Origin: Leucoraja erinacea
Taxonomy: Eukaryota
Length of the DNA stretch: 64,000 nt
Assembly: GCF_028641065.1 (NCBI RefSeq)
Contig: NC_073403.1
Span: 30,876,001-30,940,000, forward strand
Direction: 5' to 3'
This document shows positions 6,443 to 51,982 of this stretch, one piece after another. Every line of letters starts with the position of its first letter. The stretch's first letter is position 1. Position numbers and translations under genes: made by a program. The notes under the pieces are model-generated. The model was not told the origin of the DNA. It did not search any database and worked only from the letters and a program-made list of their open reading frames with translations.

Positions 6443-9400
6443 ATGAAGATTGTTTTGGGCAGTGTTTGCAGAGTTTGGATTGTGTGTGTGTTGTTGTCCG
6501 GCTCCCTGAGCCTGGGCTGTGAGAGGCTGCAGTTACTGCAAGTTCTCAACACGGACACTCTGGGCAAACTGAACGAAATGGTGAGTTGTACACGCTCCCA
6601 GAGGCGGATATTTGTTGTTAAAAAGTCAGTGATTACATGGAGCCTGTTCTCTAGTATTTCGCTTTCTGGGGATGTTTATATTCTGCACTCTGTATCTCCC
6701 CCTTCGCTCCACCCATTGTACTTGTTTGCATTTACAACATTATTATCTGTTTAGAATGGATAGCAACAAAAGCTCTGGGGTTGTGAGTAACGTTGGAATC
6801 TTTTCTCTCAGGGTGGCCACCTACCCCGACAGTGTGTGACTGAGCGGCGGTCGCTGAAAACCAAGCCCTTGAACCTGGTGAAACTTTCCATGGGGGTTAC
6901 GGTGAGTTAACTCTGCATTTTACTTAAACGTCGTTCACTCAAGATCTTTATGTTAAGTAATTGAAGAACCCCATTTAATTCTTTGCCAGAGAAAGTGATA
7001 TCAGTTCTTCCACACCACGGTACTCTCTATTTCTGACTCCATTACTGAGCTCGTTCACACTGAATGTATCTCACTGGAGTTAACACACCTCTTCCATCTC
7101 TCTCTCTCCCATTCACTAGTAGCCTGTGCTCTGCATCTTCTCATCATTCTACATGCTCTACTACTGTGTTGCACCCTCAATCATCTTCTGCCGTTCACAC
7201 TTACACCCTCTATACCTGTTTTACCTCTATTCCAGTTATCTCACCCACCTATTGAGTTTACATCTTGACTTAACCTCCTGGGAATACTCTACTCCCCTCA
7301 AAGCATCTCACAACCTGTGTCCACCATAGGCGGTGTCACCATTGACACCACACTAACCTGTTGATGACTGAGCGCAGAGAGGGATTCTGAGATTCACTTC
7401 TGGTCTAGTTAAATATTTCCACATTTCAGCAAGTCCATTGGGTTCAGGGAGGAGAAAGCACGGGGAGTCAGAGGAGAGGTGTACAACATTATGAGTGTCT
7501 TAGTACGGGTAGACAGCCTTTATATTTCCCCTGTAGCAGAGATATCTGTAACAAGAGGCCATGAGTTTGAAGAAAAATGTAAATGTTTAGACTGCCTACA
7601 AAGAAACATCTTTGTCCAGTCTATAGCTGGATTCTGGAGTGCACTGCCTAGTATTGGGATCAACATGGTACAGCAGGCTCAATTGTTGGCCTGTCTTGAT
7701 AGATAATGGAAAGAGTGAAAGTAGATACCAGGAACTACAGATACTGGTTTACAAAAAAAACAAAAAACTGATGGAGTAATTAAGCAGTTACCTCAGCACT
7801 TTGTGTCTTTTGTTTTACACAATGCGAGGTAGAGATAGAGAGGGCTGAAGGACCTATATTGTATCTCCATCGTGCTGTGGTTGTTGACATACCCCCCAAC
7901 TGAAGTTTTGAAGTGTAGAAGGTGTGTGTGCTGAATTCTTCCTGTTATTATTATGGGGTGGTTGTTACACATCCGCTACCTGAAGGTCTTGATATGATGA
8001 ATGTTCAGACAAATTACAAGACTCTTCCTCCCTCCTTTAATCTTTTTAAGTCCCCCATCCCCTAACCAACTCGCCTTTGTGCCATTTCTGGACCTACAGA
8101 TTTACCATACAATTGTTCATAAGCCCATATGTTATTGGAACAGATTTAGGCCATTCGGCCCATTGTGTCTACTCTGCCATTCAGTCATTCATTACGTATC
8201 TTTATCTCTCAACCTCATTCTATTGCCTTCTCCCCTTAAATGCTGACATCCGTACAAATTTAGAATTCTGTCTAACTATGCCTTAACAATGCACTTTGAA
8301 TTGGCCTCCACACTCAACAGTCCAATTAATACCACAGATTCACCATCTGTCTTAAGAAATTCACCCTCATCTCCTTTCTAATGGCACGCCCCATAATTCT
8401 GAGGCTATTGCCTCTGGTCCAAGACTCTTCCACTAATGGAAACATCCTCTCCACATCCACTCTTTCCAGGCCTTTCATTATTTAGTAAATTACAAAGAGG
8501 TCATTCCTCATCTTTCTGAATGACAGCAAGTACATGCCCAGTGACATCAAACACCCATCACATGTTCACCCAATCGTGCCTGGGATCATTCTTGTAGAAC
8601 TCCGCTGGACCCTATCCAATGCCAGCATATCCTTCCTCAGACATGGGGACGAAAACTGCTCACATTACTCCAAATGTGGTCTGACCAGTGCCTTGTAAAT
8701 CCTCAGCATTACATCCCAGCTTTGATGGAATTATGAACTTTGACGGAATTTGCAATTGAATTTGCTCTTGCCTTCAGAAGTTATTGTTCAATTGTTTCAC
8801 ACAATCAATTCAGGCAACTGTTTCCTTTTATACATCTTTACTGACATTGTACACCTCTATAAAATCTCCAAGTCACATTCACTGTTTGATGAGATTAGTC
8901 AGATCTTCTCCCATCTCTCCCTGTAATTCTGGTCCTTCAGCATAGATTGTATTCTTGCAAAGTTTTCACATTCCATCAAAGACCGTGACACTGTGTCCTG
9001 CATCTGAGGCTGTACTGCTTGTTAATTGATCATACACTGTTTAAACCTCTAACTACAGATTACAATTCCACTGGCTCTGACCTTCTTTCAGTTCTGTGTG
9101 TATAGCAAGCCTCCAGTCGAGAGTTAATTGTCTGAAATAGGTGCTTGATTGTGACTTATCCTATTCTGCTAATATTGTTAAGCATTATATTTCAATTTAA
9201 ACCAGATTGGATCCAGGATCTGGCTAATGTCTCTATGTGTGTTTTGCACAGGCCCAGGACAGGATCCAGATTGTCCATCAAACACTGCATCACCTCCGCA
9301 GGATCTACAGCATGAACCTGAGCTCAGTAACGTGGGTCCAGGCCACAGTGGAACACTTCAGGCTTCTCCTGGATCGGCAGTTCAGAGAGCTGGAAGTCTG

Positions 9401-9693
9401 TGTCAGGAAACCAAGCACAGGGTCCAGGGCAAGGAAGAATGCCACAGTTCATAAATACTTCAGGAAACTGAGAAAGTTTCTGAAACTGAAGGTGAGCTAA
9501 TTGTCATGAAACTATGTGATTACTAACAGATTTTACAGACAAATTATTTCTGTTCATTATCTAATACATTTTCTCGATATTTTCCCTTTTGCAGGGATTC
9601 AGTGACTGTGCCTGGGAAATAACTCGCGCTGAGACCAGGGCACATTTACAACAGCTCCTTCTCATCATGGCAACAATCAGCAGGGAACAATGA
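6443..9693 (+). CDS. Type I interferon gene A; join(6443..6580,6812..6901,9252..9491,9595..9693); 188 aa
   Basis: Hand-spliced with GT-AG phase-0 introns. Exon 1: MKIVLGSVCRVWIVCVLLSGSLSLG (signal peptide) then CERLQLLQVLNTDTLGKLNEM. Exon 2: GGHLPRQCVTERRSLKTKPLNLVKLSMGVT. Exon 3: AQDRIQIVHQ...ELEVCVRK...KYFRKLRKFLKLK. Exon 4: GFSDCAWEITRAETRAHLQQLLLIMATISREQ*. CAWE, the YF..L..FL helix and four cysteines are type I IFN hallmarks. Confidence 0.93.
8130..8720 (-). mobile_element. CR1 LINE 3' fragment in IFN-A intron 2
   Basis: Degenerate reverse copy of the CR1 3' end (aggccattcggccc...ctccaaatgtggtctgacc). Confidence 0.7.
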
Positions 9694-10189
9694 GGATATT
9701 TCAGAGACTGAATCATAAGAGACTCAAATTGATGACTATTTAATGTACCTTTTTGTTACAGAAAATATTTCTTATCATATTAGTATTACATTCCTGGAGC
9801 AAAACTGAAAAATTACTGGAAGGACACAAAGTGCTGGAGTAACTCAGCAGATCAGGCAGCATCTCTGTAGAATATGGTTCGATGATGTTTCAAGTTGAGA
9901 CCATTCTTTAGATCTCTTATGCCGGATACGTGATACATGAAAAATGGAAGATGTTCAAACAACTCAGTACGTGTGGAGTGGAAATCTGAGTTATCCTAGG
10001 TCAAATAAACTGGAATTACCAGAAATTTTAACTGTTTTTCAACCAGAATTATTATTATTCAATCAGAAGCGTTAGTTATATTTTCTCATCTTAGCTGTTT
10101 TTCTGAACTGTGGAGTATATCCAGCATTTTACAATGTATTATTCCGTTATTTTGACGATTGAGTCATGAAGAACAAAGAACATTTGGAT

Positions 10190-10453
10190 ATTTCTCTTTA
10201 TTTAAGTGTTGATTTAATTTATTGATATTTATTTTTGTACCATTATCCTGTGGTGAACTATGAATCTTGAAAAATCCTCTCATTCAAAGAATGACAAATT
10301 TAGTAAATTAATTAAATTCATTTAGTGAATATATTCATTTCAGTTTATTTATATTTGCACTGGCATATTTTTAAGCATATATCAACAGTGGTCAAAATCT
10401 TTGTTAATTTATTGTATTTTATAGAAAAGTGGATATTTTTTTTGTAAAATAAA
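10190..10453 (+). promoter_or_regulatory. IFN-A 3'UTR AU-rich elements and poly(A) signal
   Basis: Many ATTTA/TTATTTA pentamers; AATAAA at 10448-10453 followed by a T/GT-rich tract. Confidence 0.6.
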
Positions 10454-11229
10454 CTATTTTTCAATGAAATGCGGATATAATGTGTTTTCAATATTGCATA
10501 TTTTTAGCATTGTATTTATTTTTGCCAATCTGTCTAATGAATGGGAATTCTCGCATTTCCAGACAAGTCCCTTGAATATATTTTTCCCTCTGTAATCTCA
10601 CATCGCATAAACAAAGTATGTGGAGGTCAAGATGCCAGTTTTTTGGACTTATGTGAGACCCCATTTGGAGTATTGCCTGCAGTTCTGGTCACCATGTTGC
10701 AGGAAGTATGTGTAGGCTTTGCAGTGTTGGCAGTATGGGTTTACCAGACTGCTGCATGGACTAAGGTTGATCAGCTGTCAGGAGAGGTTGCACAAACTTT
10801 GCTTGGAAAGGGTAGACAGAACCCTTTTCCCAGGATAGGAATGTCAGCTTTAAGGAGAATAGGGCAAAATGTGATGGAGATGTGTGGGGCAAGTTTGTTA
10901 CTTCTTGGGGCAAGATGGTTGCCTGGAATGGGGTGCTGGTGATGGTAGTTAAGGCAGAGATAACATTGGCAATTAGATGCCTTTAAATAGAGACATGGAT
11001 ATTCAGGAGATGGAACGGGAGGCAGAGGTAATTAGTTTAACTTGGCATGGAAATTATAGGTCAAATGATCTGTTCTCTGCTGTACTGTCCTATATCCCAT
11101 GTTGTCCTGGGGACTGGCCAAAGCCTCCTGACTCATCTCCATTGGATGTAAAAATGTAAAAAATGGATCAGCCTCCAGTTACCACAGCCAGTGCTTGGGG
11201 CATCTCAGCAAGTTTGTCACATCGAAGGT

Positions 11230-14200
11230 CCTGGAAGAGAGAATGTGGGTGACCATGAAGAAGGGAATAAGACCATGAGTGCAGGTGACATCAGTGGCCA
11301 TCCCTCTTCATAAGAGGCACGCTCCCTTGGGTGATATTTGGTGGACAAGAGGGGGGAAGGGGAATGGGGAATGAAACCTCAAGGTAGTGTTCAGCAGGAC
11401 TGTGAAATCAGCCCTGTGACTTCAGGCAAAGCATTAGTGGTGGGCGACTCTATAGTTCGTGGTGAAGACTCTGCGGCAGCAGTCAAGACACCAGGATGAT
11501 GTGTTGCCTCCTTGGTGCCAGGTTGAAGTACATCTTGGAGTGACTGCATAGCATCCTCAAAGGTGGTTGGTGGAGTGTGAAGCAGCTGGAGGTCGTTGGC
11601 ACATATGACAGAGGTATGAAAAGGAAAGAGGTTCTGCAATGGGTGTATGGGGAATTGGGTAAAAGGCTAAAAGGCAGGAGCTCCGGGGTAATGATCTCTG
11701 GATTGCTTCCAGTACCTCGTGAGTGTAGGAACAGAAAGCTAATGTAGTTGTATGTATGGCTGAGGAGTTTGTGCAGGAGGCAGGAATTCAGATTCCTAGA
11801 CCATTAGGATTTCCTCCAGGGCAGAGGTGATCTGCACAAGAGTGAGGGGTTGCACCTTAACTCCAGAGGTTCCTATATCCTGCCAGGCGGGTTTACTAGT
11901 GTTACACAGCTGGGTTTAAACTAGATTGACAATGGGGTGCCTGTAGGGCAGAGGCAGATGAGTGGTTACAAGTTGGTATAGAAATGTGATGAGAGAAAGT
12001 TTAGTGGACAGAGTAGGCAAGAGAAAGACTTGGAGTGCGCAGATTCATGACAGATGCAGTTTAATGTGGATTAATGTGAGGTTATCCACTTTGGTAGCAA
12101 AAACAGGAAGACAGATTATTATCTAAATAGTGTCAAGTTGGGAATAGGGGAAGTACAACGGGATCGGGGGGTTCTTGTTCATCAGTCAATGAAAGTAAGC
12201 ATGCTGGTACAGCAGGCCTTGAAGAAAGCCAATGGCATGTTGGCCTACAGAACAAGTGGAGTTGAGTACAGGAGCAAAGAGGTCCTTCTGCAGTTGTATA
12301 GGGCCCTAGTGAGACTACACCTGGAGTATTGTGTGCAGTTTTGGTCCCCTAATTTGAGGAAGGACATTTGTGCTATTGAGGGTGTGCAGCGTAGATTCAC
12401 AAAGTTTAATTCTCGGGATGGCGTGACTGTCATATGCTGACAGGATGGAGCGGCTGGGCTTGTACACTCTGGAATTTAGAAGAATAAGAGGGGATCATTG
12501 AAATATGCAAGATTATTAAGGGTTTGGACACGATAGAGGCAGAAAACACGTTCCCGGTGTTGGGGGAGTCCAGAACCAGGGGCCACAGTTTAAAAATAAA
12601 GGGCAAGGCATTTGGAATGGAGATGAGGAAACACTTTTTCTCACAGAGATTTGTGAGTCTGTGGAATTCTCTGGAGGCCGGTTCTCTGGATACTTTCAAG
12701 AGAGAGCTTGATAAGGCTCTTAAAAATAGCAGTCAGGGGATATGGGGAGAAGGCAGGATCTGGGTACTGATTGTGGATGATCAGCCATGATCACATTGAA
12801 TGGCGATTCTGGCTCGAAGGGCCGAATGGTCTACTCCTGCACCTATTGTCCATTGAGTGAGGAAGGCTTTTTGGTTACAATTTGACATTTCTTATGCAGG
12901 AGGCCTGACAGGTAAGGTAGATGAGCTTTGGGCATGGATGTGTACATACAACTAGGACATTGTAGCTATTACGGAAACCTGGTTAAAAGTGGGGCAGGAC
13001 TGCCAACTCAATTTTCCATGTTACAGCTGCTTCAGGAGAGACAGAGGTGAGGGTAAAAGAGGAGGGGGTGTTGCATCATTGGTTAAGGAGGATGTCACGG
13101 CAGTGATCAGTGGTGGCATTACAGACAGTCTGTCTAGTGAGGCTATATGGACGGAGCAGAGGAAGAAGATAGGGATGATCCCCTTTTCTGGAGTGTACTA
13201 CAGGCCCCCAAATAGTTAATGGGAATTAGTAGAGCAAATATGTCAGGAGATGGCAGGCAGCTGCAAGTCTAATAATGTTGTCATAGTAAACGATTTTAAA
13301 TTTTCCACTATTGACTGGGAATGTCATAAAGTAAAACGTATAAACGGGGCAAAATTTGTCAAATGCCTTCAGAAAAGTTTCCTCCGGGAATATGTGTAAT
13401 AACTTTCTTCCCACACTAAAGATGTACAAGTTTACAGGTTAATTTGGCTTCGATAAAAATTGTAAATTGTCACTGGTGTGTAGGATGGTCTTCATATCCG
13501 GGGATTGTTGGTAAACGCGGACTCAGTGGACTGAAAGGCCGGCTTAGTTATGCGAAGTATCTCTAAACTAAACTAAATGTTCAAGGATGAGACTTTTTGG
13601 ACAACTGACCACTGTTTTATTAGGTTTAAGATAGTTATGGGTAAAGACAGGGTGGGCTCAAAAGTTAAATTTTTAAATTGGGGCAAGGCCAACTTTAAAG
13701 GTATCAGACCTCACTCCAGTTGATTGGAGCAGATTGATTGAAGGAAATGGACCATCAGGAAAATGGAATGTTTTAAAAGTGTGCCGACAAGAACTCAGGA
13801 CATACACATCCCTGTTAGTGAAGGGTAAGACGGTGAGTGTAAGGAAGCTTGAATGATGGGGAAATTGACTCTGGTCAAGAGCATGGAACCACACAGAAAT
13901 CAAGCAGTTAATTCTGTGGGGAGCCACCTGAGATGGTCAGGGTTCTCAATGAATATTTCTCTTCTGTTTTTAACATGAAGAAAGACATGAGGATGGCGGG
14001 ACTTTGGGGCAATCAATGGAAGTGGCTCGAGAGCAGTCAGTATTATGTTGTAGTGGCGCTGAAGGTCCTGACAGTATGAAGGTAGACAAATCCGAGCCTG
14101 ATCAGATATATCCGCGCTCAATTTGAGAAGATAGAGAGGAAATTGCAGGTGCCCTTGCTGAGATTTACATCTTCATTAAATACAGGTGGGGTGCCGGAAG

Positions 14201-14400
14201 GCCTGAAGCATCAAATGGTGTGCCTCTCTTCAAGAAAGGCTGCAGGGAAAGCTTGGTAACTACAGGCCTACATCTGTGGTCGGAATGTCGGAATGTCATT
14301 AGCGAGTATTGTAAGGTATAAGATATACATGAATTTTGGTGACCATGGCCGATTAGGGATATTCAGCATGGATTTGTACATGGGAGATCGTGTCTGGGCC
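11230..14400 (+). mobile_element. Degenerate CR1 LINE (ORF1 esterase remnant and endonuclease region) with a younger CR1 3' end nested at about 12046-12850
   Basis: VVGDSIVR esterase-like motif near 11437; endonuclease motifs (ITETW, RRDR..KRGGGVA, GVYYRPPNS); ORFs 12138-12440 and 12524-12790 encode the CR1 C-terminus. Confidence 0.75.
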
Positions 14401-14405
14401 CATTA

Positions 14406-14631
14406 TGCCCCTATCCTACTTAGGAAACATGAACGGAAACCTCTGGAGACTTTGCACCCCACCCAAGGTTTCCGTGCAGTTCCCGGAGGTTTTTGTCAGT
14501 CTCCCTACCGGCTTCCACTATCTGCAACCTCCGGCAACAACCTGCAACCTCCGGGAACCGCACGGAAACTTTGGGTGGGGCGCAAAGTCTCCAGAGGTTT
14601 CCGTTCAGGTTTCCTAAATGGGACAGAGGCA
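14406..14631. mobile_element. PIF/Harbinger MITE with about 85-bp inverted arms
   Basis: TGCCCCTATCCTACTTAGGAAAC...GTTTCCTAAATGGGACAGAGGCA, flanked by a TTA TSD (14403-14405 and 14632-14634). Confidence 0.85.
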
Positions 14632-14664
14632 TTACTGTTTGACATGATGGCATCTATATCTAAG

Positions 14665-14881: not shown

Positions 14882-14916
<35 letters not shown>

Positions 14917-16204: not shown

Positions 16205-18734
16205 ATGGATTTGGGCAGTGTTTGCAGAGCTTGGATTGTGTGGGTGTTGTTGTCCGGGACCCTGAGCCTGGGTTGTGAGAGGCTGCAGTTACTGCAAGAT
16301 CTCAATATGGACACTCTGGGCAAACTGAATGAAATGGTGAGTTGTCCCCGCTCCCAGACACCGATCCGACACTCTCCGGCGATCTTTGATTTTTCATTTC
16401 CCTGGTCAGATACGGTGCAATAGTTTAAAGCTTTGACGGGTTCCCTGTCTGATATCCGCGACGCTTGCCTGTCAGTTACTGGATTCTCTAGAACATAATT
16501 TACCCTCTTCCCCCAGGGCGGCCCCTTTCCGTGGCATTGTGTCAGAGAGAAGGTCCCGTTGAAAACACAGCCCTTGAAACTGGTGAACCTTGCAAATGGG
16601 TTGTCGGTGAGTGATTGGATTTTTAATTCATTCATTCGCCTTATTTAGAACCTTCATCGACTAATAACGTGAATTACTTTTGGATCTGCAAACAATTGTA
16701 GAACTCCTTTCCCAAATCATATTATGATTGACGCAGACATGGTGGGACGAAGAGCCTCTTGCATTGCTGTACTGTTGATGTTCAATGTTCTGTGTAATAA
16801 ACAAGGAAGCAAAATGTGTGCCGGACTTCGATTCAATGAGGTTGTGTTACTAAAGCGAGGTAGCCCGGCTGTAATTGTGGACAGATTTTGATGCAGCAGA
16901 ACATTGAATATTAGGTGTCGATTTTATTTTTCGTACCCAACGAAAGAGAGAAATTCCTGGCATTTTGCACTTAGGTTCTTCAGTCTCTGTAGCCGCCTGA
17001 AGAAAGATCGCCGTTGGTCTGATAAGCCTAGTTTTGATTAATTCTGATAGATTTTGATGCCCACTGAATTTTAGAGTGGAAAATGGAGTGTGGTTCCACT
17101 TTTGGGATCATCTGGTTCTCACGGCTCAGTGTTTACAAAGATGTGATCGTCAATGAAGACTGAAATTAGGCATCTTATTTCCTCAGATGGTTGCATATCT
17201 CTGAATACATATTCTCCAGGCAGAGTCTTAGAATATCTTTTGCGCCTTCCTATTTTACTCACACTAACACTTTTAGTCTTTCTAACGCGATGGACATAAT
17301 CTTACTGTCCATTTCAAACGTTTAATTCCACTCTAATCGCCTGGGAATATCATACCTTTCGCCCGTTAACAATTTGGCGTTAACTCACGTCCTCAATTCA
17401 AATGTCATGAACATGACACGGTGCCAGTTAAGTGATATAATCCTGGAATTGTTAGAGCAAGATCCTTAACATTGAAGTGCAGATAAATTGCATGTTCCTT
17501 TCTGGATCATCCTTCCACCTTTATGGGACGTGCGAGTTATATTTCCACTTATTCCATCTCCTGGAATGTATCCAATATCTAAAACAGGCAGTTGCATTTA
17601 GGACCATATTTTTTATTTTATTTGCTTTTCTAATGTTCTTAATTGAATTCTAATAAAGCTAGATAAATATGTACTTTGAATACTGCAAAGCTTTTCAAAG
17701 AAATTCATCATATTCATCGTTGTGAACATCTCGAATACTTTCCAGTAATGTGACATTGTTTCTTCCTTTACTTCGTGTACAGTACGTCCAGAAGTTGATT
17801 TTTCTTTTCAACTGAAATCCTGTAAATGTTATTTTCCTATTAATGTACCTACACAAAATAAGTTGAACACCCTTCCTGTTATAAAGTTTGCGTGTTCATT
17901 GATTCTTTGAGGTTCTGGTTGTCTGACAGCAAGTCGCCACGATGTTTTTGCTCGTCTTTTATTATGAGGCTGAAGTACGGATGTCTCTAGTTATTCTGGG
18001 AAATATGACTGTTTTTACTGCTTCGCCAATATTTGTTGACTCTGCACCCAAAATACTTTTCATTATCTTCTAAACACCTAACATTGCTCGTTTGCTATCT
18101 CGCGTAAATATGCGTTCTCCGCCCTCTGGGTAAGATCCCATGTTAATTAAAACTAAATATCCCATGTTAATTAAAACGAAACCTCTCCCCGTTCATTGGT
18201 TTCAGGTTTCGTTGCCCCGTGTTCCTTTCCATAACTAACAGACCCCTATTACCGACAAGACCGCTCTAATGCCACCTTGTCTCCTCTCCGCAGGCTCTGA
18301 AGAAGATCCAGATTGTCCTTCAAACACTGAGGCAAACCAGCGAGATCTACAGCGAGGATACGGGCTCGGCCCCGTGGCCCCGCGAAGAGGTGGAAAGCTT
18401 CCGGCTTCTACTGCATCGGCAGATCAGAGAGCTGGAGGAATGCGCATGGAAACGGGCGCCGGAGTCTCAGCAAAAGAGAAACATTGCTGTTCACAAATAC
18501 TTTCGAAAACTGCGACGCTTTCGGAAACATCAGGTGAGTTGGTTATGCTTACAATCCGGTTTTATTTGCAGATATTCCATTTCACCCAAATTCAATCTGT
18601 CCCTTGCTTAATGTATTTTCCTGATTCCTTCCTTTTTCTAGAACTTTGGCGACTGTGCCTGGGAAATGATCCGCGCCGAGACAAGAGCCCATTTACAGCA
18701 GATCCTTCTCATAACGGCAAACATGAGGAGCTAA
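16205..18734 (+). CDS. Type I interferon gene B; join(16205..16336,16517..16606,18294..18533,18642..18734); 184 aa
   Basis: Exon 1: MDLGSVCRAWIVWVLLSGTLSLGCERLQLLQDLNMDTLGKLNEM. Exon 2: GGPFPWHCVREKVPLKTQPLKLVNLANGLS. Exon 3: ALKKIQIVLQTLRQTSEIYS...LEECAWK...KYFRKLRRFRKHQ. Exon 4: NFGDCAWEMIRAETRAHLQQILLITANMRS*. Splice sites are canonical and exon sizes match the paralogs. Confidence 0.92.
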
Positions 18735-22207: not shown

Positions 22208-23701
22208 GGGATGCTGTTCCACAGTCTCGGAGCTAACCGGCCTATAGATTCACCCCTTCTGCTTCGCTTCCTTTTTGTAGTGGGGTGATGATTTCCAATC
22301 TTCAGGAACTCTGGTATACTCTGAAGTATACAATCTTCAGTATACACACGCTGTCCATTCCTTCCACAGATGCTGCCTGTCCCGCTGAATTCCTCCAGCA
22401 CTTTGTGCCTTCCTCAATGTTCCAGCATCCGCAATTACTTGTGTCACCGTTTCCGTGACCTTCCCCGTGGAGACGCCGGAATCGCAGCTTTCCTCAGCAT
22501 TTCGCCGCTTTCCCCTCACCTCTCAGCGTGACCCGAGCTGATTACAAACGCAACCCGCTGGAGCAACTAGGCGGATCGGGCAAAGTCTGGAGGGGAATGG
22601 ACAGACAAACCTTTCTGCCGAGACCCTCTCTCTGCTCCAAACACTTCCTGACCCGCTCGGCTCCGCCCGTAAGTTAATGACGAAAATGCCAGCGTCTGCT
22701 GTCTCTTGTGCCGCATGTTCACAAACACGCCCACTCTGGGATGTGGTGTGACGTTTAAGCGTGTTTTTTTGGATAGGCACATGGAAGAGCAGGGAATAGG
22801 GGAACATAGATCGCGTACAGGGAGATGAGATCAATGTACCTTGGCACCATGTTCGGCACAAACATTGTGGGCGGCCGGTTCCTGCGCTGTATTGTTCTAT
22901 GTTTTGTAAGCAGTAGCAGTAGTGTCATGTGAGGCTGCTTCTGAGGAGAGTTTCATGATAGATAGAAAAAGGGACAATTTCCTCTTTTGCTCTACATATT
23001 GTACTCCAGCAAGGTTAGATTTAAGTGAATGGCGGTAAAACAAAGGTTTTCACAATATCTCAGTGCACGTGACAATAATAATCCAATACCGCTTTATCCC
23101 GTTTCCCTTCAGCCTCTCAGCGAGACCCGAGCGGTTCACAAACACGCCCACTGTCGGATGTGACGAGCCGGTCTCTTTCCCCGACTCACTTTCGCTTCGG
23201 CCGCTTTCCCTCGACAGACCGAGCCGGAGACTTCCCGCGGCGGCGAGAAGACAAGAAAGGGATCGGGACCGACCACACTCGGCTCGAAGCCTTTTAATTT
23301 CAAATAAAAGCAGAATGTCTGGTGTAAATAACAGAGAGGCAGAATCACTTTTTTTCTCCTCGGAGAGCAGAGTGTGGGCCCGGTGTGTCGGCGCTGAGAG
23401 AGTCGCCACCAACCAAGCGGCCGCGAGCCGTCTCTCCGCACTGTCCCCCTGAGATGTGGCTTCACCGCAGTTGGGTGAGTGGAGGGGCGGCTTTAACACA
23501 ATTTCTGTCCGTGTCTCCGAGGATGAGTCTGAAAGGCGCTGTGTTATTATAACCCGGATAAAATGTAGCCCCCGGCGATGCACAGACACAGTGACGTCCC
23601 CTCCCCACCCCGTCCCCTGCCGTGACTGAGCCTCCCCCTCTGTGACCCCCTCATGTGAACCTGCGAAGTCTGAGCCGCAGCGCTGCTTGTTCTCTCCCAT
23701 C

Positions 23702-24032: not shown

Positions 24033-24727
24033 ATGGTTTTGGGCAGTGTTTGCAGAGTTTGGATTGTGTGTGTGTTGTTATCCGGGACCCTGAGCCTGGG
24101 CTGTGAGAGGATGCAGTTAATGCAAGTTCTCAACACGGAAACTCTGGGCAAATTGAATGATATGGTGAGTTGTCCCAGCTCCCAATGACCGATCCGACAC
24201 TCTTCGTCCGGGCTTTTTGTTAAAAAGTGAGTGATTACACTCCTGTTCTGCACTCAGTATCTACCCCATCGCTCTATCCATTGTACTTGAGTTTGCTTAA
24301 TGGCATTGATGCATAGTAATATCTAATTAGAATGATAGCATGAAGAACAAAAGCTCTGGGGTTGTGAGTAACGAAGACATCTTATTTTCTCAGGGTGGCC
24401 ACCTACCCCGACAATGTAGGACTGAGCGGCGGTCGCTTAAAACAAAGCCCTTGGACCTGGTGGTGAAACTTTCCATGGGGGTTGAGGTGAGTAAACCCTG
24501 CATTTTTATGCTACCTACTTTGATGTAGCTGGTATGAACATTTAAAAAAAAACTGACAATAGAAGAATAGCAAATCCTTCACTCCGTTCTTATCATCACA
24601 CTCATTGCAATAATGTATTACTACATTTGATCTAATAACCGCACCTTCCAAATCACCTGCTTTCCTATGAAGGTTCTACCCTCAACCTTGTTTGTTCTCT
24701 TTCCTCCACAAATACTGCAGACCCGCT

Positions 24728-27800: not shown

Positions 27801-28349
27801 TTACTGATAATAGTTTTAAGAGCACTCTAGAGCAATTCTAATGTGAAATGGGACAAAACACCCACTAATGCCACTGTGTGTGTTTTGCACAGGCCCAGGA
27901 CAGGATCCAGATTGTCCATCAAACACTGCATCACCTCAGCAAGATCTACAGCATGAACCTGAGCTCAGTAACGTGGGTCCAGGCCACAGTGGAGCACTTC
28001 AGGCTTCTCCTGGATCGGCAGCTCACGGAGCTGGAAGTCTGTGTCAGGAAACCAAGCACAGGGTCTAGGGCAAGGAAGAATGCCACAGTTCGTAAATACT
28101 TCAGGAAACTGAGAAGGTTTCTGAAACAGAAGGTGAGCTGATTGACATGAAACATTGTGATTACCAACAGATTTTACAGGCAATTTATATCTGTTACACA
28201 ATCTAATATATTGTTTTGACTTTTTCCCTTTTCAGGGATTCAGTGACTGTGCCTGGGAAATTACTCGCGCTGAGACCAGGGCGCATTTACAACAGCTCCT
28301 TCTCATCATGGCAACAATCAGCAGGGAACAGCAGGGAAGACTCAAGTGA
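24033..28349 (+). CDS. Type I interferon gene C; join(24033..24164,24394..24486,27893..28132,28236..28349); 192 aa
   Basis: Exon 1: MVLGSVCRVWIVCVLLSGTLSLGCERMQLMQVLNTETLGKLNDM. Exon 2: GGHLPRQCRTERRSLKTKPLDLVVKLSMGVE. Exon 3: AQDRIQIVHQ...KYFRKLRRFLKQK. Exon 4: GFSDCAWEITRAETRAHLQQLLLIMATISREQQGRLK*. Close paralog of gene A. Confidence 0.93.
24729..24805. repeat. (CA)n microsatellite in IFN-C intron 2
   Basis: Direct reading. Confidence 0.95.
25875..26950 (+). mobile_element. Penelope-like element 3' portion (GIY-YIG) in IFN-C intron 2
   Basis: CSRCQLLYIGETKRRLGDRFAQHLRSVR; homologous to 58817-59926 but frameshifted. Ends in the 3' repeat with the hammerhead motif. Inserted into a CR1 fragment. 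Confidence 0.85.
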
Positions 28350-43212: not shown

Positions 43213-43224
43213 GAATCCGTCTGA

Positions 43225-46192
43225 CAAGGGGTCCCACTTTGCAGATAACAAAGTACAATGGCGAGCAGCTGATAGTGGGGCGCAGTGGACTCTCCACATC
43301 CCACTGGGCTGGTGGAGCAGGAATGGTCTACTAAAAGCGCAGATACATACATTAACTCCCTCCCACATGCTCAAGGGGTAGGACCCTGTGTTACAGCAAG
43401 CAGTAAACAACTTGAACCAACGACCTGTGGCAGGGGGTACTTGCGGCATCATAGCGAGAGAATGTTGCACATATACCGGATGCTAATGAAAACAATACGG
43501 ACCTGGTGGTGCACATGTGACGCCTAGAATAAAATTGGGAAACAATTGCACTATGAGGGCATGGAGAGCGCCTGGTGGAATTTGTGGTCTTGGAAGTTCG
43601 AAAGCCGGGGGAATAATATTCTGCAATTCCCTATGGCTTCCCTACTTCTGTGTGAGGAGTGCCCGGAGGGTGGAGGGCTGGTATTGATCCTGAAGGTGGT
43701 TTGTAATGGTACAGCCTGAGGGCCGAATGTTCCGCGATTAGGTGCATAGGGTTCAAAGGTTCAAAGGTATTTTATTGTCACACGTACCAATTAAGGTACA
43801 GTGAAAATAATTACCATACAGCCATACTAAAAAAAAAGCAATACGACATACAACTACATAAAAGTTAACATAAACATCCACCACAGTGGATTCCACACTC
43901 CTGGCTGTGGTGGAAGGCAATGAAGTCAAATATTCTTTCCTCGTTATTATGTTTAAAACATCAGCTTGGGCTGATTAAAACGGACCAGTAAATCGTGAGG
44001 ACGCTTGCAAGGTCATTAAGCTAAGCTTTGCTTCCATAGAGACATCCGTGACTAGCTGAGTGTCTGATAGAACACATAACTCCGCCATTATGGTATGGGC
44101 CTCATCGGACTCTGCAACACCAAGGAATTTGTGGTGAGTAATTCATAAAAAGCATTAAAGTAAAATGTTTATAAATTCAATAAACCTTGATTAAAAGATT
44201 TTACTGGCAGAAGAAGTCTGTGCGCCCTTGCCAAGACTAAGCCCTCCAAGCAGTAGCTGTGCCATTGCGACTCAGGGATCTGCAACATCTCCTCCCTCAG
44301 TAGCGTTGAGTAGGCATGAACGATTCTTTCGTGCGGCGTCCTTGGCTGCGACAAGACGTTTATTGTCTCGGTAGTGGTCTTAGCCTGTTGCATGATCTGC
44401 AACAAAGAGAATGCAATCCTGGTAAGTATTTTTTGGGAGGCGATGGAGAAACGTGGACGTAGGGCGGAGTAAATGGGAAATTTGCTGATTGTTCACCCGA
44501 AAGCACTTACATCCGTGAACATCTCCCGCTGAAGTTGTTGAACAGGCACGTTGCAACCTGCCACAGTTGTGCAGGCCGGCTTTTGCTTGGCGTGCTGCTG
44601 TTTGTCCGCAGTGCTGGACCCAGAGGGTCCCTCTGGGGAATCCGTCTGGCCCTCACTCGAGGTGGCGCACAATGATTTCCCCATGGTAAGCTGGAAGAAA
44701 GTAAATGTGTATCAGGAATGTGCAAGGCCATCAGGACGTAGCAAGCAAGGTGACCACCAAGTTATCATTGTCAAATATCATTTGACCATCTCACTTTCCA
44801 ACAAATTATAATTGTTACATAATTTTCATAACTATTCACCTTCTTGCCGCTCTTCCTCCTATGCACTCGGACTATGTGGTTCCGGACAAACCCCCATTTC
44901 TGCACTATCCACTGCTCCCTGTCAGTCAGTGGCTGACTGGCGGAGCCAGTCTTGCCAAGACTGTGAGACAGCCTCCCGAACCGTGTCCTCTGACTCTTGA
45001 ACCATTGACACAGTTGGTCAACTGTGAAAACAGAGAATAAATGAAGATCAGAGTTGAGCAAATTGTAATCTTAATTGGAACTGCAATTACAACCACAGAC
45101 ATGTAGACAAACTACAATATATGTACTTACAAGAGCAGCCAGGGAACTCCTTCGCCTTGTTTTCAAGCATCGCGTTGCGGAGATCCGTGCTCCTGAAATC
45201 ACGATGGCCCTTATCGTACAGTTCTCGGTGGACCTGATACCATCCTACCAGTTCTCCCTCTTGTTCCTTGGTAAAATTATAAGGCCTTGTGACCACCGTT
45301 TTCTTCTTCTTCGCCGGAGCAGCTGAGGCATCAGTCTCCTGAGCCAAATCCGAGTCACATTCTGCAGCAGCAGCTGAGTCAGGAGTTGGGGCATGAATTT
45401 GGGTAGGAACTGGTGAGGGTTTTAAGGCAGAAGATCGGGCAGGAGATCGGGCAGGTACTGATGAAGGGGCAGGGTCAGGAACAGCAGCATGGCCAGAAGC
45501 AGTGGCTGGACCCTCCAGTATCTGTATGTTGTTTCTAATAATCTGCTTTACCTTGCCCTGTATGGAATGCTTCTTGATGTTCCTGGGGTCCCTTGTTCTC
45601 TTCATGTTCTCTGTGGATCGCTGCAGCTTGGAAGAAAAACGTGGCTCTGTGGCAAGAAACGTGGTAAGTGGTGATTATTTACAAATCGCGCCCGGTTTTT
45701 ATGCTGATGCGATAAAGGCGGGCCGACTGATAGTGGACGTCGAAGGTAGACAAAAGTGCTGGAGAAACTCAGCGGGTGCAGCAGCATCTATGGAGCGAAG
45801 GAGATGGGCAAAGTTTCGGGCCGAATCCCTTCCGCAGACTGATCTTAATGGCCGCGCACGTTGGGCGTCGGGCGGTGACGTCATCGCCAGGCTCGGCGTA
45901 CGCCGTCAAGTCGCTGCGTACAACGTCAAGACGCTGCGAACGACGTCAAGACGCTGCGTACGCCCTCAATGTGGGCGCCTGTGGGCCGACGGGCCGTTGG
46001 CGCGCGGGATTTTCGGACAGTGCGGGATTTTCTGAGCCCCGCGCGATGTCGGGACCAGCCCCGCACAACTCCACGCGCCTCCGCGCTTCCAAGTGGGACC
46101 GGCCCCGCGCGGCCATACGGTGCCCGTACTCCTCAAGCGACCACGTTTGGTCGCCCCAGACGCATGCAATCGCATGCAAGTGGACAGGCCCT
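43225..46192 (-). mobile_element. PIF/Harbinger-type element with a spliced Myb/SANT (MADF) gene
   Basis: The right TIR reads AGGGCCTGTCCACTT on -, similar to the MITE terminus; the left end GGGGTCCCACTT is degenerate. Exons at about 45605-45131 and 45021-44840 encode ELVGWYQVHRELYDKGHRDF...WFKSQRTRFGRL. Confidence 0.6.
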
Positions 46193-48360
46193 GTAGTTTA
46201 ACACATAATCACCTCGCATTCTTAGAGATAGAATTATTATACTGAACATTTGATTATTATTGTTTATATACTCAGTAACATGTAGTTAGATGGGCGCTAC
46301 TGTAGGCTCATGCCTCCAAAGGTGGAGTGTATTTTAAGGGTTAAACAGACAATTTCAGCTAAAATTGAGTTATCAGCAAGATTAGCAGCACCGCATTCTA
46401 AACCCTTCGAAAACAAGATGTTTGCAAAACATGTGGGAGATGTTTCCGCATCTGTTCCCACACAATGCCGGGGAACGTCTGAGTTTGCTGAGCGCAACAC
46501 GTTGGGCGAATCGCCGCGGACAAAGGGGGGGCTTATGATTGTCTCCGGGAGTGGGTATGGCAGATAAGAAATGCCATAAAGGATGGTGTCCGGCGCCCTT
46601 CCAGGAGGAGCCCCAGCGAACGGGTACCAGGTGATCAACAACAGGAACATCCTGTGGCGTGTACTCGGGGTTTGACAGTGTATATGCGGATACGTGAGCC
46701 TATGTGGTTTATTTTATTTAGAAGTTTAATAAAATACCCTGTTATTCACACTCTTATTTGTCCAAATCCGGTGATTTATCGAACACAACACAATTATGAA
46801 GGATCTGCACCACTAGGGCCATTCCTTCTTCACCCTGAAGTCCCCTATCACCTGGCTGAGGAACAGCGATGTTCCTGCAAATTATCAGGTTCATGAGCGG
46901 ACCTGCCATGACAAAGGTGCACTACAATCCATCTCTTGCATTCTATGTTTTTGCACTGACATTTTTTTGTTTTGTTTTTGCGCAGTTTACTTTATTTTAC
47001 ATGTTTTGTGGATAATAGATGTATACTTAATGTATAATTTGTTTGCTGTAGGAAGGCATCGAATTTGTTTTGCCTGTTTGCCTTTGTGCCTATGGTACTT
47101 CTACAAACAAGATTTTTCATTGTACCTGTTGCTCGGCGTATTTGTGCATTGACAATAAACTCCACTCGACTTGATCTGTGGCCTGAGAAATCGTTCATGT
47201 TATTCCGTGTCTTTGTACTCTGTGGAAGTAATACTGATACCAACTGCTGCGGTCGGACTATGAACTTGGTCGAAGATGCCTTCTGATCCATTGAATCTCG
47301 CTGAACATCTTGTGTAAGGTGTGTCCAGCAATGAATTTTGCGAGCTGGCACACACAGGTGTAGGACTCTGCCTAGACTGATGCTGAACTTGGATGCAATG
47401 TTTCCATGGGAAAGGCAACAGTGTCAGACCCGAAGGAGCCTGGTCTATGTTCCCCTAAAGGTTTATACAAAATGCTGGAGAAACTCAGCGGGTGAGGCAG
47501 CATCTATGGAGAGAATGAATATGCGACGTTTCGGGTCGAGACCCTTCTTCATAGATGCTGCCCCACCCGCTGAGTTTCTCCAGCATTTTGCATCTACCTT
47601 CGATTTTACCAGCATCTGCAGTTCTTTCTTAAACGCATGTGCCCCTGATGTAGATGTGCAATTAATTCGCACCTAGCGACCTCTACCGACTGCAAAGAGA
47701 TGATGAAATGCTGGAGCAACTCAACTGGTCATCCAGAATACTGGGGACAAGGGATGTTTCGGGTCCAGAAGGGTCTCGACCCGAAACTTCACCTAATCCC
47801 GTTTCCAATAGATGCTGCGTCCGCTGTTATTCCAGCATTTTGTGTCTACCTTCGGTGAAACCCAGCATCTGCAGTTCCGTCCTACAACTTTAAAGGTTAC
47901 TTAGCCTCAGTAAACACAAATGTAAATTGCCCCAGTGCGTGTAGGATAGCGCTGGTGTACAGGATGATAGTGCTAGTGTACTGGTCTGCGCCGACTCGGT
48001 GTGCCGAAAGCGTTGTCTCCGCGTTGCATCTCGAAAGTCTGAAGTAAAGTCTGAAGTAAGTAAAAACTAGACCGCGAATGCAAGTAAAGTTCTTTTCAGG
48101 AGTAGAGACAGTAAAAGGTGAGAGCTATGTCCGACTGAATGCCAGAGGGTCGCGATACTTTGGGAGAAACTTCAATCACCAAGAATCTACTCATTTCATC
48201 ACTCACAGACAAAGATCTTTCAAAAAATAACAGTTTCAAAAATGGTACAAGTACAAAATCTTTATTACCTCGTTTCAATTAAAAATAGCAGTTTAAAATA
48301 AATAGTCTCCAAATTATATTAAGGTGTATATTCTCTGCACAGTAAGCACCAGACTCCAAA

Positions 48361-48740
48361 ACATCCTCAAAACAAAATAAATACTGACAGTCAGTTTGTG
48401 CATGTTAATATAATAAAATAGGTGTCAATTTCAACTAAAATGTGAATAAATAACATGAATCAGGTTAAATGTGTATTGGTGACTTCCGGGAAACTTCATC
48501 AACCCAAGATAAATGCTTACAGTACATGTTTGCATGATAATGTTATAAAAATAGGCGATCGTTTCAACTATGCAAATAATTAACATAAATCTGGTTAAAT
48601 GTATATTGGTAACTTCAAGGAAACTTCGTCAAAACAAAATAAATACTTACAGCATATGTTTGCATGTTAATATTATAAAAATAGGTTATCTTTTCAGCTA
48701 TGTAAATAAATAACATAAATCTGGTTAAATGTATATTGGT
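48361..48740 (-). repeat. Three tandem 130-bp AU-rich units in the IFN-D 3'UTR
   Basis: GGTTAAATGT(G/A)TATTGGT recurs at 48463, 48593 and 48723. A poly(A) signal lies at 48261-48266 (TTTATT on +). Confidence 0.85.
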
Positions 48741-48747
48741 CACATCT

Positions 48748-51700
48748 TCAGTTCGTCTCGTTGATTCTTGTCATTACTAGAGGCAATTGTTGTAAACACG
48801 CCCTGGTCTCGGCGCGCGTTATTTCCCAGGCGCACGCGCTGAATCTCTGCAAAAGAGAAACGTTCGGAATCACGCATCAGAGAATGAATAGATTTAGATT
48901 GAGTGAAATAATTGCCCACGGGTCGTTAGATGATAAGATTCAACCGGCTCACCTTCCGTTTAAGAAACTTGCCGAGTTTCCTGAAGTAGTTGTGAACCGC
49001 GGCGCTTCTCCGTGGCCGGGTCTCGGAGCCTGTGTTCCTCACACAGTTTTCCAGCTCTCTGATCTGCCCAGCCAGGAGAAGCCTGAGATGCTCCACCTTG
49101 TCCCGGGGCCATGTGACCGAGGCCAGGTTCATGCTGTAGATCTTGCTGAATTGACGCAACACTTGGTAGACAACACGGACTGTGTCCGGGGCCTGCACAC
49201 AACACAAAGCGATATCATGGACCCGTGAGAACGGCCGGGAGGGGACAATATCACACTCATTTCCAAATCCAACAGCGGTCAGTGGAATATGCATGTTTGC
49301 AGTTGTCTTTAAAACCTTGTCTAAACATTGTTGTTGGCAACTTAACATCGCTAGCAGCTCGGTGATGAAACTCGTGTTTTACTCTGTGTAGGAACGAACA
49401 ACAGATGCATGTTTACACCGAAGATATACACACAATGCGGTGTAGTCAGCGGGTCAGGCAGCATCTCTGGATAAATTGAATAGGTGACGTTTTGGATCGA
49501 GTTCCTGCTACAGACAGAAACTGACCCGTCGAAGAAATGGTCTGGACCCGCAACGTCACCTATTCCTTTCCTTCAGAGATGATGCCTGACCCGCTGAGCT
49601 GCTCCTGCATTTTATGTCATGTTTTTGTTTTAGCTGACCAACTCCTTCAATCAAAGGACGTGAAATCGTTCTTCACGGAACTGTTTCGCTCGGTGAAAAC
49701 CCAGTTGTGTTGTGTCTTTATTAACATGGACACAATAATATGAAAAACCGCGTCCCAGATTAAGAATATATGCGAACCGTATATTAATTGTTCCCGAGAG
49801 CATTGGCGGCGAGATTAAACGACGCTAATATATGTACACTCACCCGTCCTCTCTCCATGAGTTTGGACAAGTTCAATGTCCTGACTTCCAATGATGTCCT
49901 TTCAGCTGCGCACCGCCGGGTCAGGGGGGCTCCCTACAACAGAGGACACGGTCAAGTCCGGCTCCGGCACACAATTCACACACAGCAACATTATCTCTAA
50001 TAACATTGTTTGCTGTCAGGCAACCTTTTGGATTGCACCTGACTATTTGACCGCACCCGCCCTTTCGTCTTCTCCTCTCCCTTCCCATTCTCTCATCCGA
50101 CGTGAAGCGGTACAGCTCTGCATGCAGTTTATCGCACCGCGTATCCCGTACACCTAGTCTGCTGAAATTTAAATTCAGTCGTGTACTCCGTCTACCCACT
50201 CCTTCAGCGAGGCTCACCCGCCCACTCGGTACATTAGCGCCATCCGGACTACAGCGAATTCAACAGCAATTCCACGCCCCTCACCAGAACGAACAGAATC
50301 CGCTTACATTCTCTGTTCCCGGTGCGCCAGACTTCATTGTTTTCCTTCTGTCTACACCTCCTCCACATGACTCTGCTCCCCTTACACTGGTGCCCATGGT
50401 CCATGCGTCAAACCTGTTCCTCCCTCCTTTTCTGAATAGTTTTACTGGCCTGATCAATTTTACTGTTTGTATGCATCGTCATCACCTCCGCCTCAATTTC
50501 CTTTGTTTAAGAAGGAACTGCAGATGCTGGAAAAATCGAAGGTAGATAAAAATGCTGGAGAAACTCAGCGGGTGAGGCAGCATCTCTAAAGGAAAGGAAT
50601 AGGTGGAAACAGTGGGCTGTGGGAGAGCTGGGGAAGGGGAGGGGAAGGAGGGAGAAAGAAATTGGGGAAGTCAATGTTCATACCGCTGGGGTGTAAACTA
50701 CCGAAGCGAATTATGAGGTGCTGCTCCTCCAATTTGCGGTGGGACTCACTCTGGCCATGGAGGAGGCCCAAGACAGAAGGTCGGATTCGGAATGGGAGGG
50801 GGAGTCGAAGTGCTGAGCCACCGGGAGATCAGGTTGGTTAATGGAACTGTGCGGAGGTGTTGGGCGAAGCGATCGGCAAGCCTGTTGACACCTCCTGCAG
50901 TGGATGGAATTAATGAGGTTGGACGAGCTGCAGGTGAACCTCTGCCTCGCCTGGAAAGACTGCTTGAGTCCTTGGATGGAGTCGAGGAGGGAGGTAAAGT
51001 GACAAGTGTAGCATTTCCTGCGGTTGCAAGGGAAAGTACCAGAGGAGGGGGTAGTTTGGGTGGGAAGGGACGAATTGACCAGGGAGTTACGGAAGGAGCG
51101 GTCTCTGCAGAAAGCCGAAAGGGGATGAGATGGAAGATGTGGCCAGCGGTGGGATCCCGTTGGACGTGGCGAAAATGTCTGAGTATTATCTGTTGTATGT
51201 GACGGCTGGTAGAGTGGAAGGTGAAGACAAGGGGAACTCTGTCCTTGTTACGTGGGGTGGGGGGGGGGGGGGTGAGAGTGGAGAGTGGAGCTACGGGATA
51301 TAGAAGAGACCCTGGTGCGAGCCCATCTATAGTCGAATAGGGGAACCCCCGTTCCCTAAAGACATCTCTGATGCCCTGGTTTGGAACCTCATCCTGGATG
51401 CAGATGCAGCGTAGACGGAGGAATTGGGAGTAGAGGATAGCAGGGTGGGAAGAAGTGCAGTCCAGATCATTAGTGCTTTATTCTTTCATTTTCACCTCAC
51501 CCTTCCATATCCCCAGTTTCCTTCTCCCCTGACTCTCAGTCTGAAGAAGGGTCTCGACCCAAAATATAACCCATTCCTTCTCTCCAGATATGTTGCCGGT
51601 GGAGTTACGCCAGCATTTTGTGTCCGCCCTCCACTCTCTGATCATTTCCCCTTCTCTGCAGCTGCAGACGCGCTTCATTGCAAACCTTCTCAGCAGTAGA

Positions 51701-51982
51701 GAGGCCGTTGAGTTGAAACATTAACGCCGCTTGTCGCGCTACGGAGGCCGCCTGACCCACTGAGAGTTCTACCAGGGTCTAACAACATCACACGGAGTTT
51801 AACACTTCACTCACTTTAATGCTACAATGTGATTCTCTATTTACACTTACCATTTCATTCAGCACAATCTGAGCTTCCTGATTAATGTCCACCTGCACAT
51901 CCGGACCCCGGCAGCCCTGCGCCAGGACCCCCGCCAACAACACTGGTAAAACGCAGAGTCTCCATGCGTTCGCGAAGGACAT
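48748..51982 (-). CDS. Type I interferon gene D (divergent); complement(join(48748..48846,48953..49192,49844..49933,51851..51982)); 186 aa
   Basis: Exon 1: MSFANAWRLCVLPVLLAGVLAQGCRGPDVQVDINQEAQIVLNEM. Exon 2: GAPLTRRCAAERTSLEVRTLNLSKLMERGR. Exon 3: APDTVRVVYQVLRQFSKIYSMN...LENCVRN...NYFRKLGKFLKRK. Exon 4: RFSACAWEITRAETRACLQQLPLVMTRINETN*. Phase-0 GT-AG introns; exons of 132/90/240/99 nt. Confidence 0.92.
50503..51470 (-). mobile_element. Penelope-like element 3' portion in IFN-D intron 1
   Basis: HGQSESHRKLEEQHLIIRFGSLHPSGMNIDF and the same 3' repeat end. Confidence 0.8.

What the first reader, a model, noticed from the sequence alone, without database searches (positions are those of the whole stretch)
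6443..51982. Four intact 4-exon, 4-cysteine type I interferon genes hidden among transposons
Seen: four spliceable genes with near-invariant exon sizes (132-138 / 90-93 / 240 / 93-114 nt), all phase 0. They form three sequence groups (A+C, B, D), and D faces the others tail-to-tail across about 20 kb of repeats. Known: teleost and amphibian intron-containing type I IFNs have 5 coding exons, while amniote ones are intronless. Inference: the 240-nt exon 3 corresponds to fused teleost exons 3 and 4, so this is a lineage-specific repertoire, probably chondrichthyan. Automated pipelines can easily fragment such genes.
Basis: partly seen in the sequence, partly recalled or inferred. Interest (0 to 1): 0.7.

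Follow-up and report, generated by a model that had tools for sequence, protein, structure and literature searches.

The report
Skate interferons with signal-less transcript
These are four intact antiviral (type I interferon) genes of a skate with the four-exon layout already known for sharks and rays, but two of them carry an extra upstream exon whose spliced RNA skips the export signal and first helix, so it likely keeps the genes switched on without releasing active interferon.

Summary
Observation confirmed to the base: four intact, all-phase-0, four-exon, four-cysteine type I interferon genes. They are 4 of 19 intact genes in a ~385-kb cluster. New here: genes A and C have an upstream exon 0 that splices straight to exon 2 and skips the exon for the signal peptide, Cys1 and helix A. 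In skate RNA this join has 30 raw reads in 3 of 4 runs and stands in contigs of 2 of 4 other runs; exon 1 is almost uncovered (reads pooled over near-identical copies, treatment unknown). Nine cluster copies keep the exon, and database models of six skate and ray species begin with it. It parallels the two-promoter, non-secreted interferon of teleosts but loses helix A. No paper on it was found in eight searches. Whether a protein is made, and what it does, is untested.

The parts
5620..5871 (+). Gene A exon 0: alternative first exon (5' end approximate), in-frame ATGs at 5716 and 5851, phase-0 donor GT at 5872; no hydrophobic signal stretch
   Evidence: Joined to 6812 in raw reads and contigs; frames; hydropathy
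6142..6270 (+). Gene A proximal promoter: kB-like site, two GAAAGTG IRF-core matches (minus strand), TATA-like box
   Evidence: Consensus matches only; motifs recalled, function untested
6443..6580 (+). Gene A exon 1: signal peptide, Cys1, helix A
   Evidence: alignment to solved interferons
6812..6901 (+). Gene A exon 2 (Cys2)
9252..9491 (+). Gene A exon 3, 240 nt (Cys3)
   Evidence: PF00143 43.3 bits; covered by contigs without an internal joint
9595..9693 (+). Gene A exon 4 (Cys4, CAWE motif, stop)
   Evidence: exon 3-4 joint GT..AG of 103 nt in 2 of 4 runs
16205..18734 (+). Gene B, four exons 16205-16336, 16517-16606, 18294-18533, 18642-18734; 184 aa; no exon 0 found
   Evidence: identical to P0090
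21419..21914 (+). Truncated copy: A-type promoter and the first codons of exon 1 (ATG 21885), then unrelated sequence
   Evidence: self-BLAST 83% to 5942-6478; exon HMM
23230..23474 (+). Gene C exon 0 (5' end approximate); only the ATG at 23454 is in frame; the upstream ATG is out of frame and stops 4 nt before it
   Evidence: spliced product identical to P0003
24033..28349 (+). Gene C, four exons 24033-24164, 24394-24486, 27893-28132, 28236-28349; 192 aa
37223..37502 (+). Decayed interferon exon 3/exon 4 remnant (CAW motif, about 100-nt spacing, no AG acceptor), likely an old pseudogene
   Evidence: weak exon-HMM hits of 14.7 and 19.1 bits, translation
48748..51982 (-). Gene D, four exons 51982-51851, 49933-49844, 49192-48953, 48846-48748; 186 aa; no exon 0 found
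52230..52245 (-). GAAAGTGAAA IRF-element match 257 nt upstream of the D start codon
   Evidence: consensus match

Best explanation
The four genes are intact four-exon type I interferon genes of a skate, likely induced on infection from the promoter just before exon 1 to give secreted cytokine, and the A-type genes (A and C) also have an upstream exon 0 that is spliced past exon 1, giving an RNA whose predicted product lacks the signal peptide and helix A and likely cannot act as interferon. Shown: gene structure, family, cluster, exon 0, its splice join and its dominance over exon 1 in the runs laid. Inferred: (1) the exon-1 promoter is the IRF/NF-kB-driven inducible one; (2) the CpG-rich exon-0 promoter is the resting one; (3) without helix A and the Cys1-Cys3 bond the product is unstable or unable to bind the high-affinity receptor chain; (4) the use of this transcript is to hold the gene body transcribed and ready while no active cytokine leaves the cell, with a promoter switch on infection as in zebrafish IFNphi1.
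For: Structure and family: (best PDB match grass carp IFNa E 3.9e-23). Exon 0 to exon 2 join: 25 reads from 19 starts in X12, 2 in X19, 3 in X13, 0 in X16; contigs in X1 and X3 of 4 runs. Exon 0 depth about 35-43 against about 1 on exon 1 in X12, and no exon 1 to exon 2 join listed in 4 of 4 raw runs; exon 1 uncovered in 4 of 4 contig runs. Nine cluster copies keep ATG, seven codons and donor, with 1 variable site in 21 and 0 in 8 donor bases, against 19 in 135 upstream and 50 in 112 in the intron. The exon occurs only inside the cluster (13 of 13 hits). 32 fetched proteins begin with it, from Leucoraja, Amblyraja, Rhinoraja, two Mobula species, Hypanus and one unnamed contig. GAAAGTG core within 400 nt of 16 of 17 exon-1 starts tested, 2 of 9 exon-0 upstream regions, 17 of 153 background bins (the promoters are related, so not independent). 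CpG observed/expected 0.96-1.03 at exon 0, 0.54 for the window. Model of the 149-aa form: pLDDT 88.6, first 8 residues disordered, four long helices, none in place of helix A; matches type I interferons. Helix A is part of the ligand-binding-chain interface in mammals (PMC8863823 passage). Two-promoter precedent: PMC5127012 passage.
Against: No stimulated sample was identified, so induction of exon 1 is not shown, and tissue and treatment of all runs are unknown. The depth comes mostly from one run (X12); X16 shows nothing. Reads are pooled over near-identical copies: only 2 of 31 X12 reads at 5755 and 3 of 29 at 5690 carry the window's gene A letter. The RNA runs carry organism code A and the best DNA holders code B, so identity of species is inferred from 95-100% matches. 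No RNA was laid on B, C or D. The kept in-frame ATG in two orders of rays fits a made protein better than a mere priming transcript. CpG content is also high at the exon-1 promoters (0.80-0.89). AlphaFold gave a confident four-helix model, which does not show instability. One exon-0 copy has lost exons 1 and 2 and two have frameshifts downstream, which fits neutral carry-over as well.
Confidence: 0.55

Rival explanations
1. The exon-0 transcript is harmless read-through from a CpG-rich region that happens to hold a splice donor; it was copied along with A-type genes and has no role.
For: The longer reading frame from the first ATG is open in only 4 of 9 copies; exon 0 persists on broken copies; B, D and the other groups lack it; low read counts in 3 of 4 runs.
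Against: ATG, seven codons and donor are nearly invariant while flanks vary; a similar seven-residue start stands in models of skates and of stingrays/devil rays; teleosts use the same two-promoter logic.
Confidence: 0.25
2. The exon-0 product is a working intracellular interferon like trout iIFN1a/b, signalling inside the cell through signal-less receptor chains or released on cell death.
For: In-frame, signal-less, conserved start; confident four-helix model that keeps Cys2-Cys4, the AB region and the last helix; trout precedent (PMC3828176 passages).
Against: Trout intracellular forms are as long as or longer than the mature protein at the N-terminus, whereas this form lacks the first 21 mature residues including helix A and Cys1; signal-less receptor variants were not looked for here.
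Confidence: 0.12
3. The exon-0 product is a damper: it keeps the surfaces of the middle helices, binds one receptor chain or partner without completing the complex, and so limits resting interferon tone.
For: Helices B to E are intact in the model while the helix A part of the high-affinity interface is gone (passage); the form dominates in the runs laid.
Against: Without a signal peptide it would not meet surface receptors; no binding was tested.
Confidence: 0.08

Closest known systems
Cartilaginous-fish type I interferons (elephant shark IFN1 cluster; PMC5332411 passages, PMC6640115 abstract, passages and part 4 of the text)
   Same: Four exons, three phase-0 introns, loss of intron 3, 4C and 2C forms, tandem cluster linked to a growth-hormone-family gene.
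   Different: PMC5332411 lists three genes in elephant shark; this cluster has 19 intact frames (18 4C, one 2C) and several broken copies. The passages read mention no upstream exon or signal-less transcript in cartilaginous fish, and PMC6640115 does not contain the word 'skate'.
Teleost IFNa/IFNphi1 long transcripts and trout intracellular IFN (PMC5127012 section 2.4 passage; PMC3828176 passages)
   Same: Two promoters, an upstream exon, a transcript without signal peptide that is present without known stimulation, a downstream promoter for the secreted form.
   Different: Teleost cases are two-cysteine group I 'a' genes and keep the mature domain; here four-cysteine genes skip the whole of exon 1 and lose helix A and Cys1. 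The tree gives no sign that skate A-type genes are orthologous to teleost IFNa, so the layout is likely convergent.
Database models P0035, P0028, P0003 (exon-0 forms), P0090 (gene B), P0108 (gene D fragment), named interferon tau/alpha-like of Leucoraja erinacea
   Same: Identical to the window's spliced products.
   Different: The models are unremarked; the secreted forms of A, C and D were not among the proteins fetched.
Shark interferon clusters noted earlier in this scan
   Same: Tandem four-exon arrays, exon modules shared between diverged subtypes, more than one first exon per gene.
   Different: There the second first exon is described as another signal-peptide exon; here it has no signal peptide and has RNA support.

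Membership tests
Type I interferon | Pfam Interferon domain PF00143 over cut-off | tested here: met
   Exon 3 of 4 of 4 genes, 42-49 bits against 26.8
Type I interferon | Hydrophobic N-terminal signal peptide and CAWE motif | tested here: met
   Peak hydropathy 2.1-2.7 within the first 20 residues in 4 of 4 (no SignalP run); CAWE in exon 4 of 4 of 4
Type I interferon | Helical type I interferon fold | tested here: met
   Profile hits 19 solved sequences, all named interferons; model of the exon-0 form matches zebrafish and carp type I IFN first, TM 0.72-0.74. The full-length fold with a 10-row alignment was too poor to use
Type I interferon | Induction by virus or dsRNA, antiviral activity through IFNAR | not testable with these tools
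   Only promoter consensus matches
Cartilaginous-fish four-exon IFN1 | Four exons, three phase-0 introns, third ancestral intron lost | tested here: met
   Cys1-4 lie in exons 1, 2, 3 and last, as teleost exons 1, 2, 3, 5 (PMC12232857 passage); contigs cross exon 3 of the A type without a joint. Teleost intron positions were not aligned base by base
Cartilaginous-fish four-exon IFN1 | Cluster linked to growth hormone and CD79 | tested here: inconclusive
   The only Hormone_1 hit of the genome lies 197 kb before the cluster and a sodium-channel gene 0.6 Mb before it; naming them GH and SCN4A is inferred. The ITAM search for CD79B rang nowhere
Cartilaginous-fish four-exon IFN1 | Groups with shark, ray and chimaera IFN1 in a tree | tested here: met
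   All 17 skate rows lie among shark and ray sequences; 67-row chondrichthyan clade SH-aLRT 88, quick tree
IFN-f lineage (PMC6640115) | Clade with ray-finned fish IFN-f | tested here: inconclusive
   One named IFNf (paddlefish, P0124) sits on a long branch with support 29
Teleost-type intracellular IFN | Upstream exon giving a transcript without signal peptide | tested here: met
Teleost-type intracellular IFN | Mature interferon domain kept whole | tested here: not met
   Exon 1 with Cys1 and helix A is skipped
Teleost-type intracellular IFN | Member of the two-cysteine group I 'a' subgroup | tested here: not met
   Four-cysteine genes in a ray-specific clade
Teleost-type intracellular IFN | Long form constitutive, short form inducible | tested here: inconclusive
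   Exon-0 form dominates in the runs laid, whose treatment is unknown
Teleost-type intracellular IFN | Protein made in cells and able to induce ISGs | not testable with these tools
   No protein data

The most novel reading that the evidence does not exclude
Skates and rays evolved, independently of bony fish, a two-promoter interferon switch in which a resting upstream exon replaces the signal peptide and helix A, and the resulting four-helix protein is a made, selected molecule (an intracellular interferon or a built-in antagonist) kept across two orders of rays.
Probability: 0.2. Interest if true: 0.72.

Novelty: new variant of a known kind. Interest (0 to 1): 0.4.

Why it matters
The genes as first described add little: the layout is published and the genes are partly annotated. 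The exon-0 transcript matters for three reasons. Signal-less interferon transcripts are described, in the papers read, only for one teleost subgroup; a second case in rays would show that resting, non-secreted interferon RNA arose at least twice and makes its disputed purpose testable by comparison. A natural form lacking helix A is a ready test of which surfaces an interferon needs. And it explains why public skate annotations list many interferons without signal peptides, which would mislead gene counts, trees and anyone cloning a skate interferon for assays.

Tried and rejected
Full-length fold with a 10-row alignment: pLDDT 44, not used. Careful tree did not finish; the quick tree was used and deep nodes are not trusted; two frameshifted skate copies were left out of it, and the two genes modelled later are not in it. 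No RNA holder was listed as on record. X16 gave no exon reads and X24 none on exons 0-2: no evidence either way. ITAM search for CD79B: nothing rang. Search with the stingray exon-0 region found only stingray and devil-ray proteins, 7 of 7: exon 0 in sharks is neither shown nor excluded. Exon 0 as a transposon piece: rejected so far, 13 of 13 genome hits lie in the cluster (that search skips very common words). A KRPRP stretch in the long exon-0 frame resembles a nuclear signal (recalled), but that frame is broken in 5 of 9 copies and absent from ray models, so it was dropped. False duplication by the assembly: the A-B units are 97-99% alike over 5-21 kb and differ in structure, which favours real recent duplication but was not tested with reads. 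The bacterial promoter scan is irrelevant. PMC3166218 was not held. Scan look-ups by place and by sequence found nothing. Literature searches that found no report of a signal-less interferon transcript in cartilaginous fish: (listings only, apart from the six papers read in passages); one search found nothing useful on helix A deletions. Subscription journals and supplements were not seen and could hold such a report.

Full report
1. Observation. Splicing by coordinates gives stop-free frames of 188, 184, 192 and 186 aa with exons of 132-138, 90-93, 240 and 93-114 nt, GT-AG introns, all phase 0. Each exon carries one of the four mature cysteines, and exon 4 begins just before CAWE. Exon 3 of all four passes the Pfam Interferon cut-off. 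A and C are 91% identical, B about 60% to them, D 42-49% to the rest. Four matching phase-0 structures with family hits are far beyond chance.

2. What it is. The 21 relatives of exon 3 are skate, ray and shark interferons (20 named, one unnamed), and a profile search gave 76 chondrichthyan proteins. Gene B is identical to P0090; among fetched proteins D is present only as a fragment. The genome holds 24 exon-3 matches, all on contig C27 between 30.755 and 31.128 Mb. From 464 kb around the window I modelled 21 copies: 17 of 19 were intact and two more, so 19 intact four-exon frames, 18 with four cysteines and one with only Cys2 and Cys4. Further copies lack exons 1-2, are frameshifted or are orphan exons. 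The only growth-hormone-family hit of the genome lies 197 kb before the cluster. The A-B pair occurs three times at 97-99% identity. Exon 1 of A, B and C is 90-92% identical while exons 2-3 of B differ from A and C (65-68%), and one gene outside the window joins a foreign exon 1 (55% to D) to D-type exons 2-4 (90%): exon modules have been exchanged, as earlier scan notes proposed for sharks. In a quick tree of 100 rows the A/C group includes electric ray, sawfish, stingray and devil ray (support 100), the B group sawfish and devil ray (98), and the D group eight shark genera (99); deep nodes, including any link to IFN-f, are unresolved.

3. The extra exon. Database proteins close to A and C begin not with a signal peptide but with a short stretch joined to exon 2. 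That stretch lies upstream of A (ending 5871) and of C (ending 23474), with a phase-0 donor; the spliced frames equal P0035, P0028 and P0003. RNA shows the join. Contigs of X1 and X3 run from exon 0 into exon 2, X3 on into exon 3, both show the exon 3-4 joint, and exon 1 has no cover in 4 of 4 contig runs. In raw reads the join has 25 reads from 19 starts in X12, 2 in X19, 3 in X13 and none in X16; in X12 exon 0 is about 35-43 deep and exon 1 about 1; no exon 1 to exon 2 join is listed. Limits: tissue and treatment are unknown, only 5-25% of each run was read, and reads pool over near-identical copies (2 of 31 X12 reads at 5755 carry the window's own letter). Nine copies in the cluster keep ATG, seven codons and donor; the longer frame from an earlier ATG is open in 4 of 9. 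The 21 coding bases vary at one site and the donor at none, the upstream 135 bases at 19 and the next 112 intron bases at 50. The exon is found only in the cluster and only with A-type genes. 32 fetched proteins carry it, from three skate genera, two Mobula species and Hypanus; none of the shark proteins fetched does.

4. How it likely works. Exon 1 encodes the signal peptide and the first 21 mature residues, which align with the N-terminal helix of human, zebrafish and carp interferons (naming it helix A is established knowledge). The model of the 149-aa form has a disordered start and four long helices with nothing in the place of helix A, and matches type I interferons. Helix A takes part in binding the ligand-specific receptor chain in mammals (PMC8863823, passage). 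An IRF core lies within 400 nt of 16 of 17 exon-1 starts but 2 of 9 exon-0 regions, against 17 of 153 background bins. I therefore read A-type genes as two-promoter genes: a resting upstream promoter that yields an RNA unable to release active cytokine, and an inducible promoter that yields the secreted protein. The role I think most likely is priming without signalling (about 0.55 for the whole account); neutral read-through (0.25), a working intracellular interferon (0.12) and an antagonist (0.08) remain open. B and D appear to have the inducible route only; no RNA was laid on them.

5. Against what is known. PMC5332411 (passages) gives the four-exon layout with loss of intron 3, the 4C and 2C forms, linkage to growth hormone, and alternative 5' splicing only for some teleost genes. 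PMC6640115 (abstract, passages and one ninth of the text) describes birth-and-death evolution and two shark lineages. PMC5127012 (passages) describes the constitutive signal-less long transcript and inducible short transcript of zebrafish IFNphi1 and salmonid IFNa. PMC3828176 (passages) shows activity of trout intracellular forms, which extend rather than shorten the mature N-terminus, and says such splicing was seen only in the two-cysteine 'a' subgroup and was open for four-cysteine genes. PMC12232857 (passages) gives the cysteine-by-exon pattern of teleosts. So the genes are members of a known family; the exon-0 transcript works like the teleost long transcript but fails two membership features (whole mature domain, group I 'a' subgroup).

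6. Verdict. The finding as written is correct and known (alone about 0.15-0.2). The helix-A-skipping upstream exon is real at the RNA level, sits unremarked in public gene models, and was not found in print, which do not cover subscription journals or supplements. Its function is untested. Novelty: new variant of a known kind. Interest 0.40.

Noticed in passing
window 640-5361: A pair of 94% identical direct repeats (640-840, 5157-5361) encloses a long minus-strand element that by eye looks like an LTR retrotransposon; it ends about 260 bases before exon 0 of gene A. Family not tested.
   Followed up: no
G000:C27:31073275-31078635 (-): Intact two-cysteine (Cys2/Cys4) interferon gene of 177 aa, related to whale shark P0114 and devil ray P0116.
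   Followed up: partly
G000:C27:30794834-30797953 (+): A-type copy that has exon 0, exon 3 and exon 4 but no exons 1-2; database models P0001 and P0053 begin with exon 0 joined to exon 3.
   Followed up: partly
G000:C27:30979855-30983454 (+): Chimeric gene: exon 1 is 76% like the divergent gene at 31.09 Mb and 55% like D, exons 2-4 are 90% like D.
   Followed up: partly
G000:C27:31088608-31092606 (-) and 31120363-31128273 (+): Two strongly diverged four-cysteine genes, one acidic in the middle helices; the first sits on a long branch inside the D group, a candidate for changed receptor use.
   Followed up: no
G000:C27:30749795-30755923 (+): A second exon-1 copy lies inside intron 2 of the first gene of the cluster, and an orphan exon 1 lies 6 kb upstream, like the spare first exons noted in sharks.
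   Followed up: no
window 48359-48746 and 9700-10400: The 3' regions are AT-rich; D's has a roughly 130-nt unit repeated three times, and A-type transcripts extend to about 10360.
   Followed up: no
window gene D, exon 4 (48748-48846): D-type proteins carry a fifth cysteine in the last helix; all four mature proteins are basic, predicted pI 9.7-10.6.
   Followed up: no
G000:C27:30804564-30805737: Exon 0, promoter and exon 1 end at a run of N, so one more gene may be missing from the assembly.
   Followed up: no
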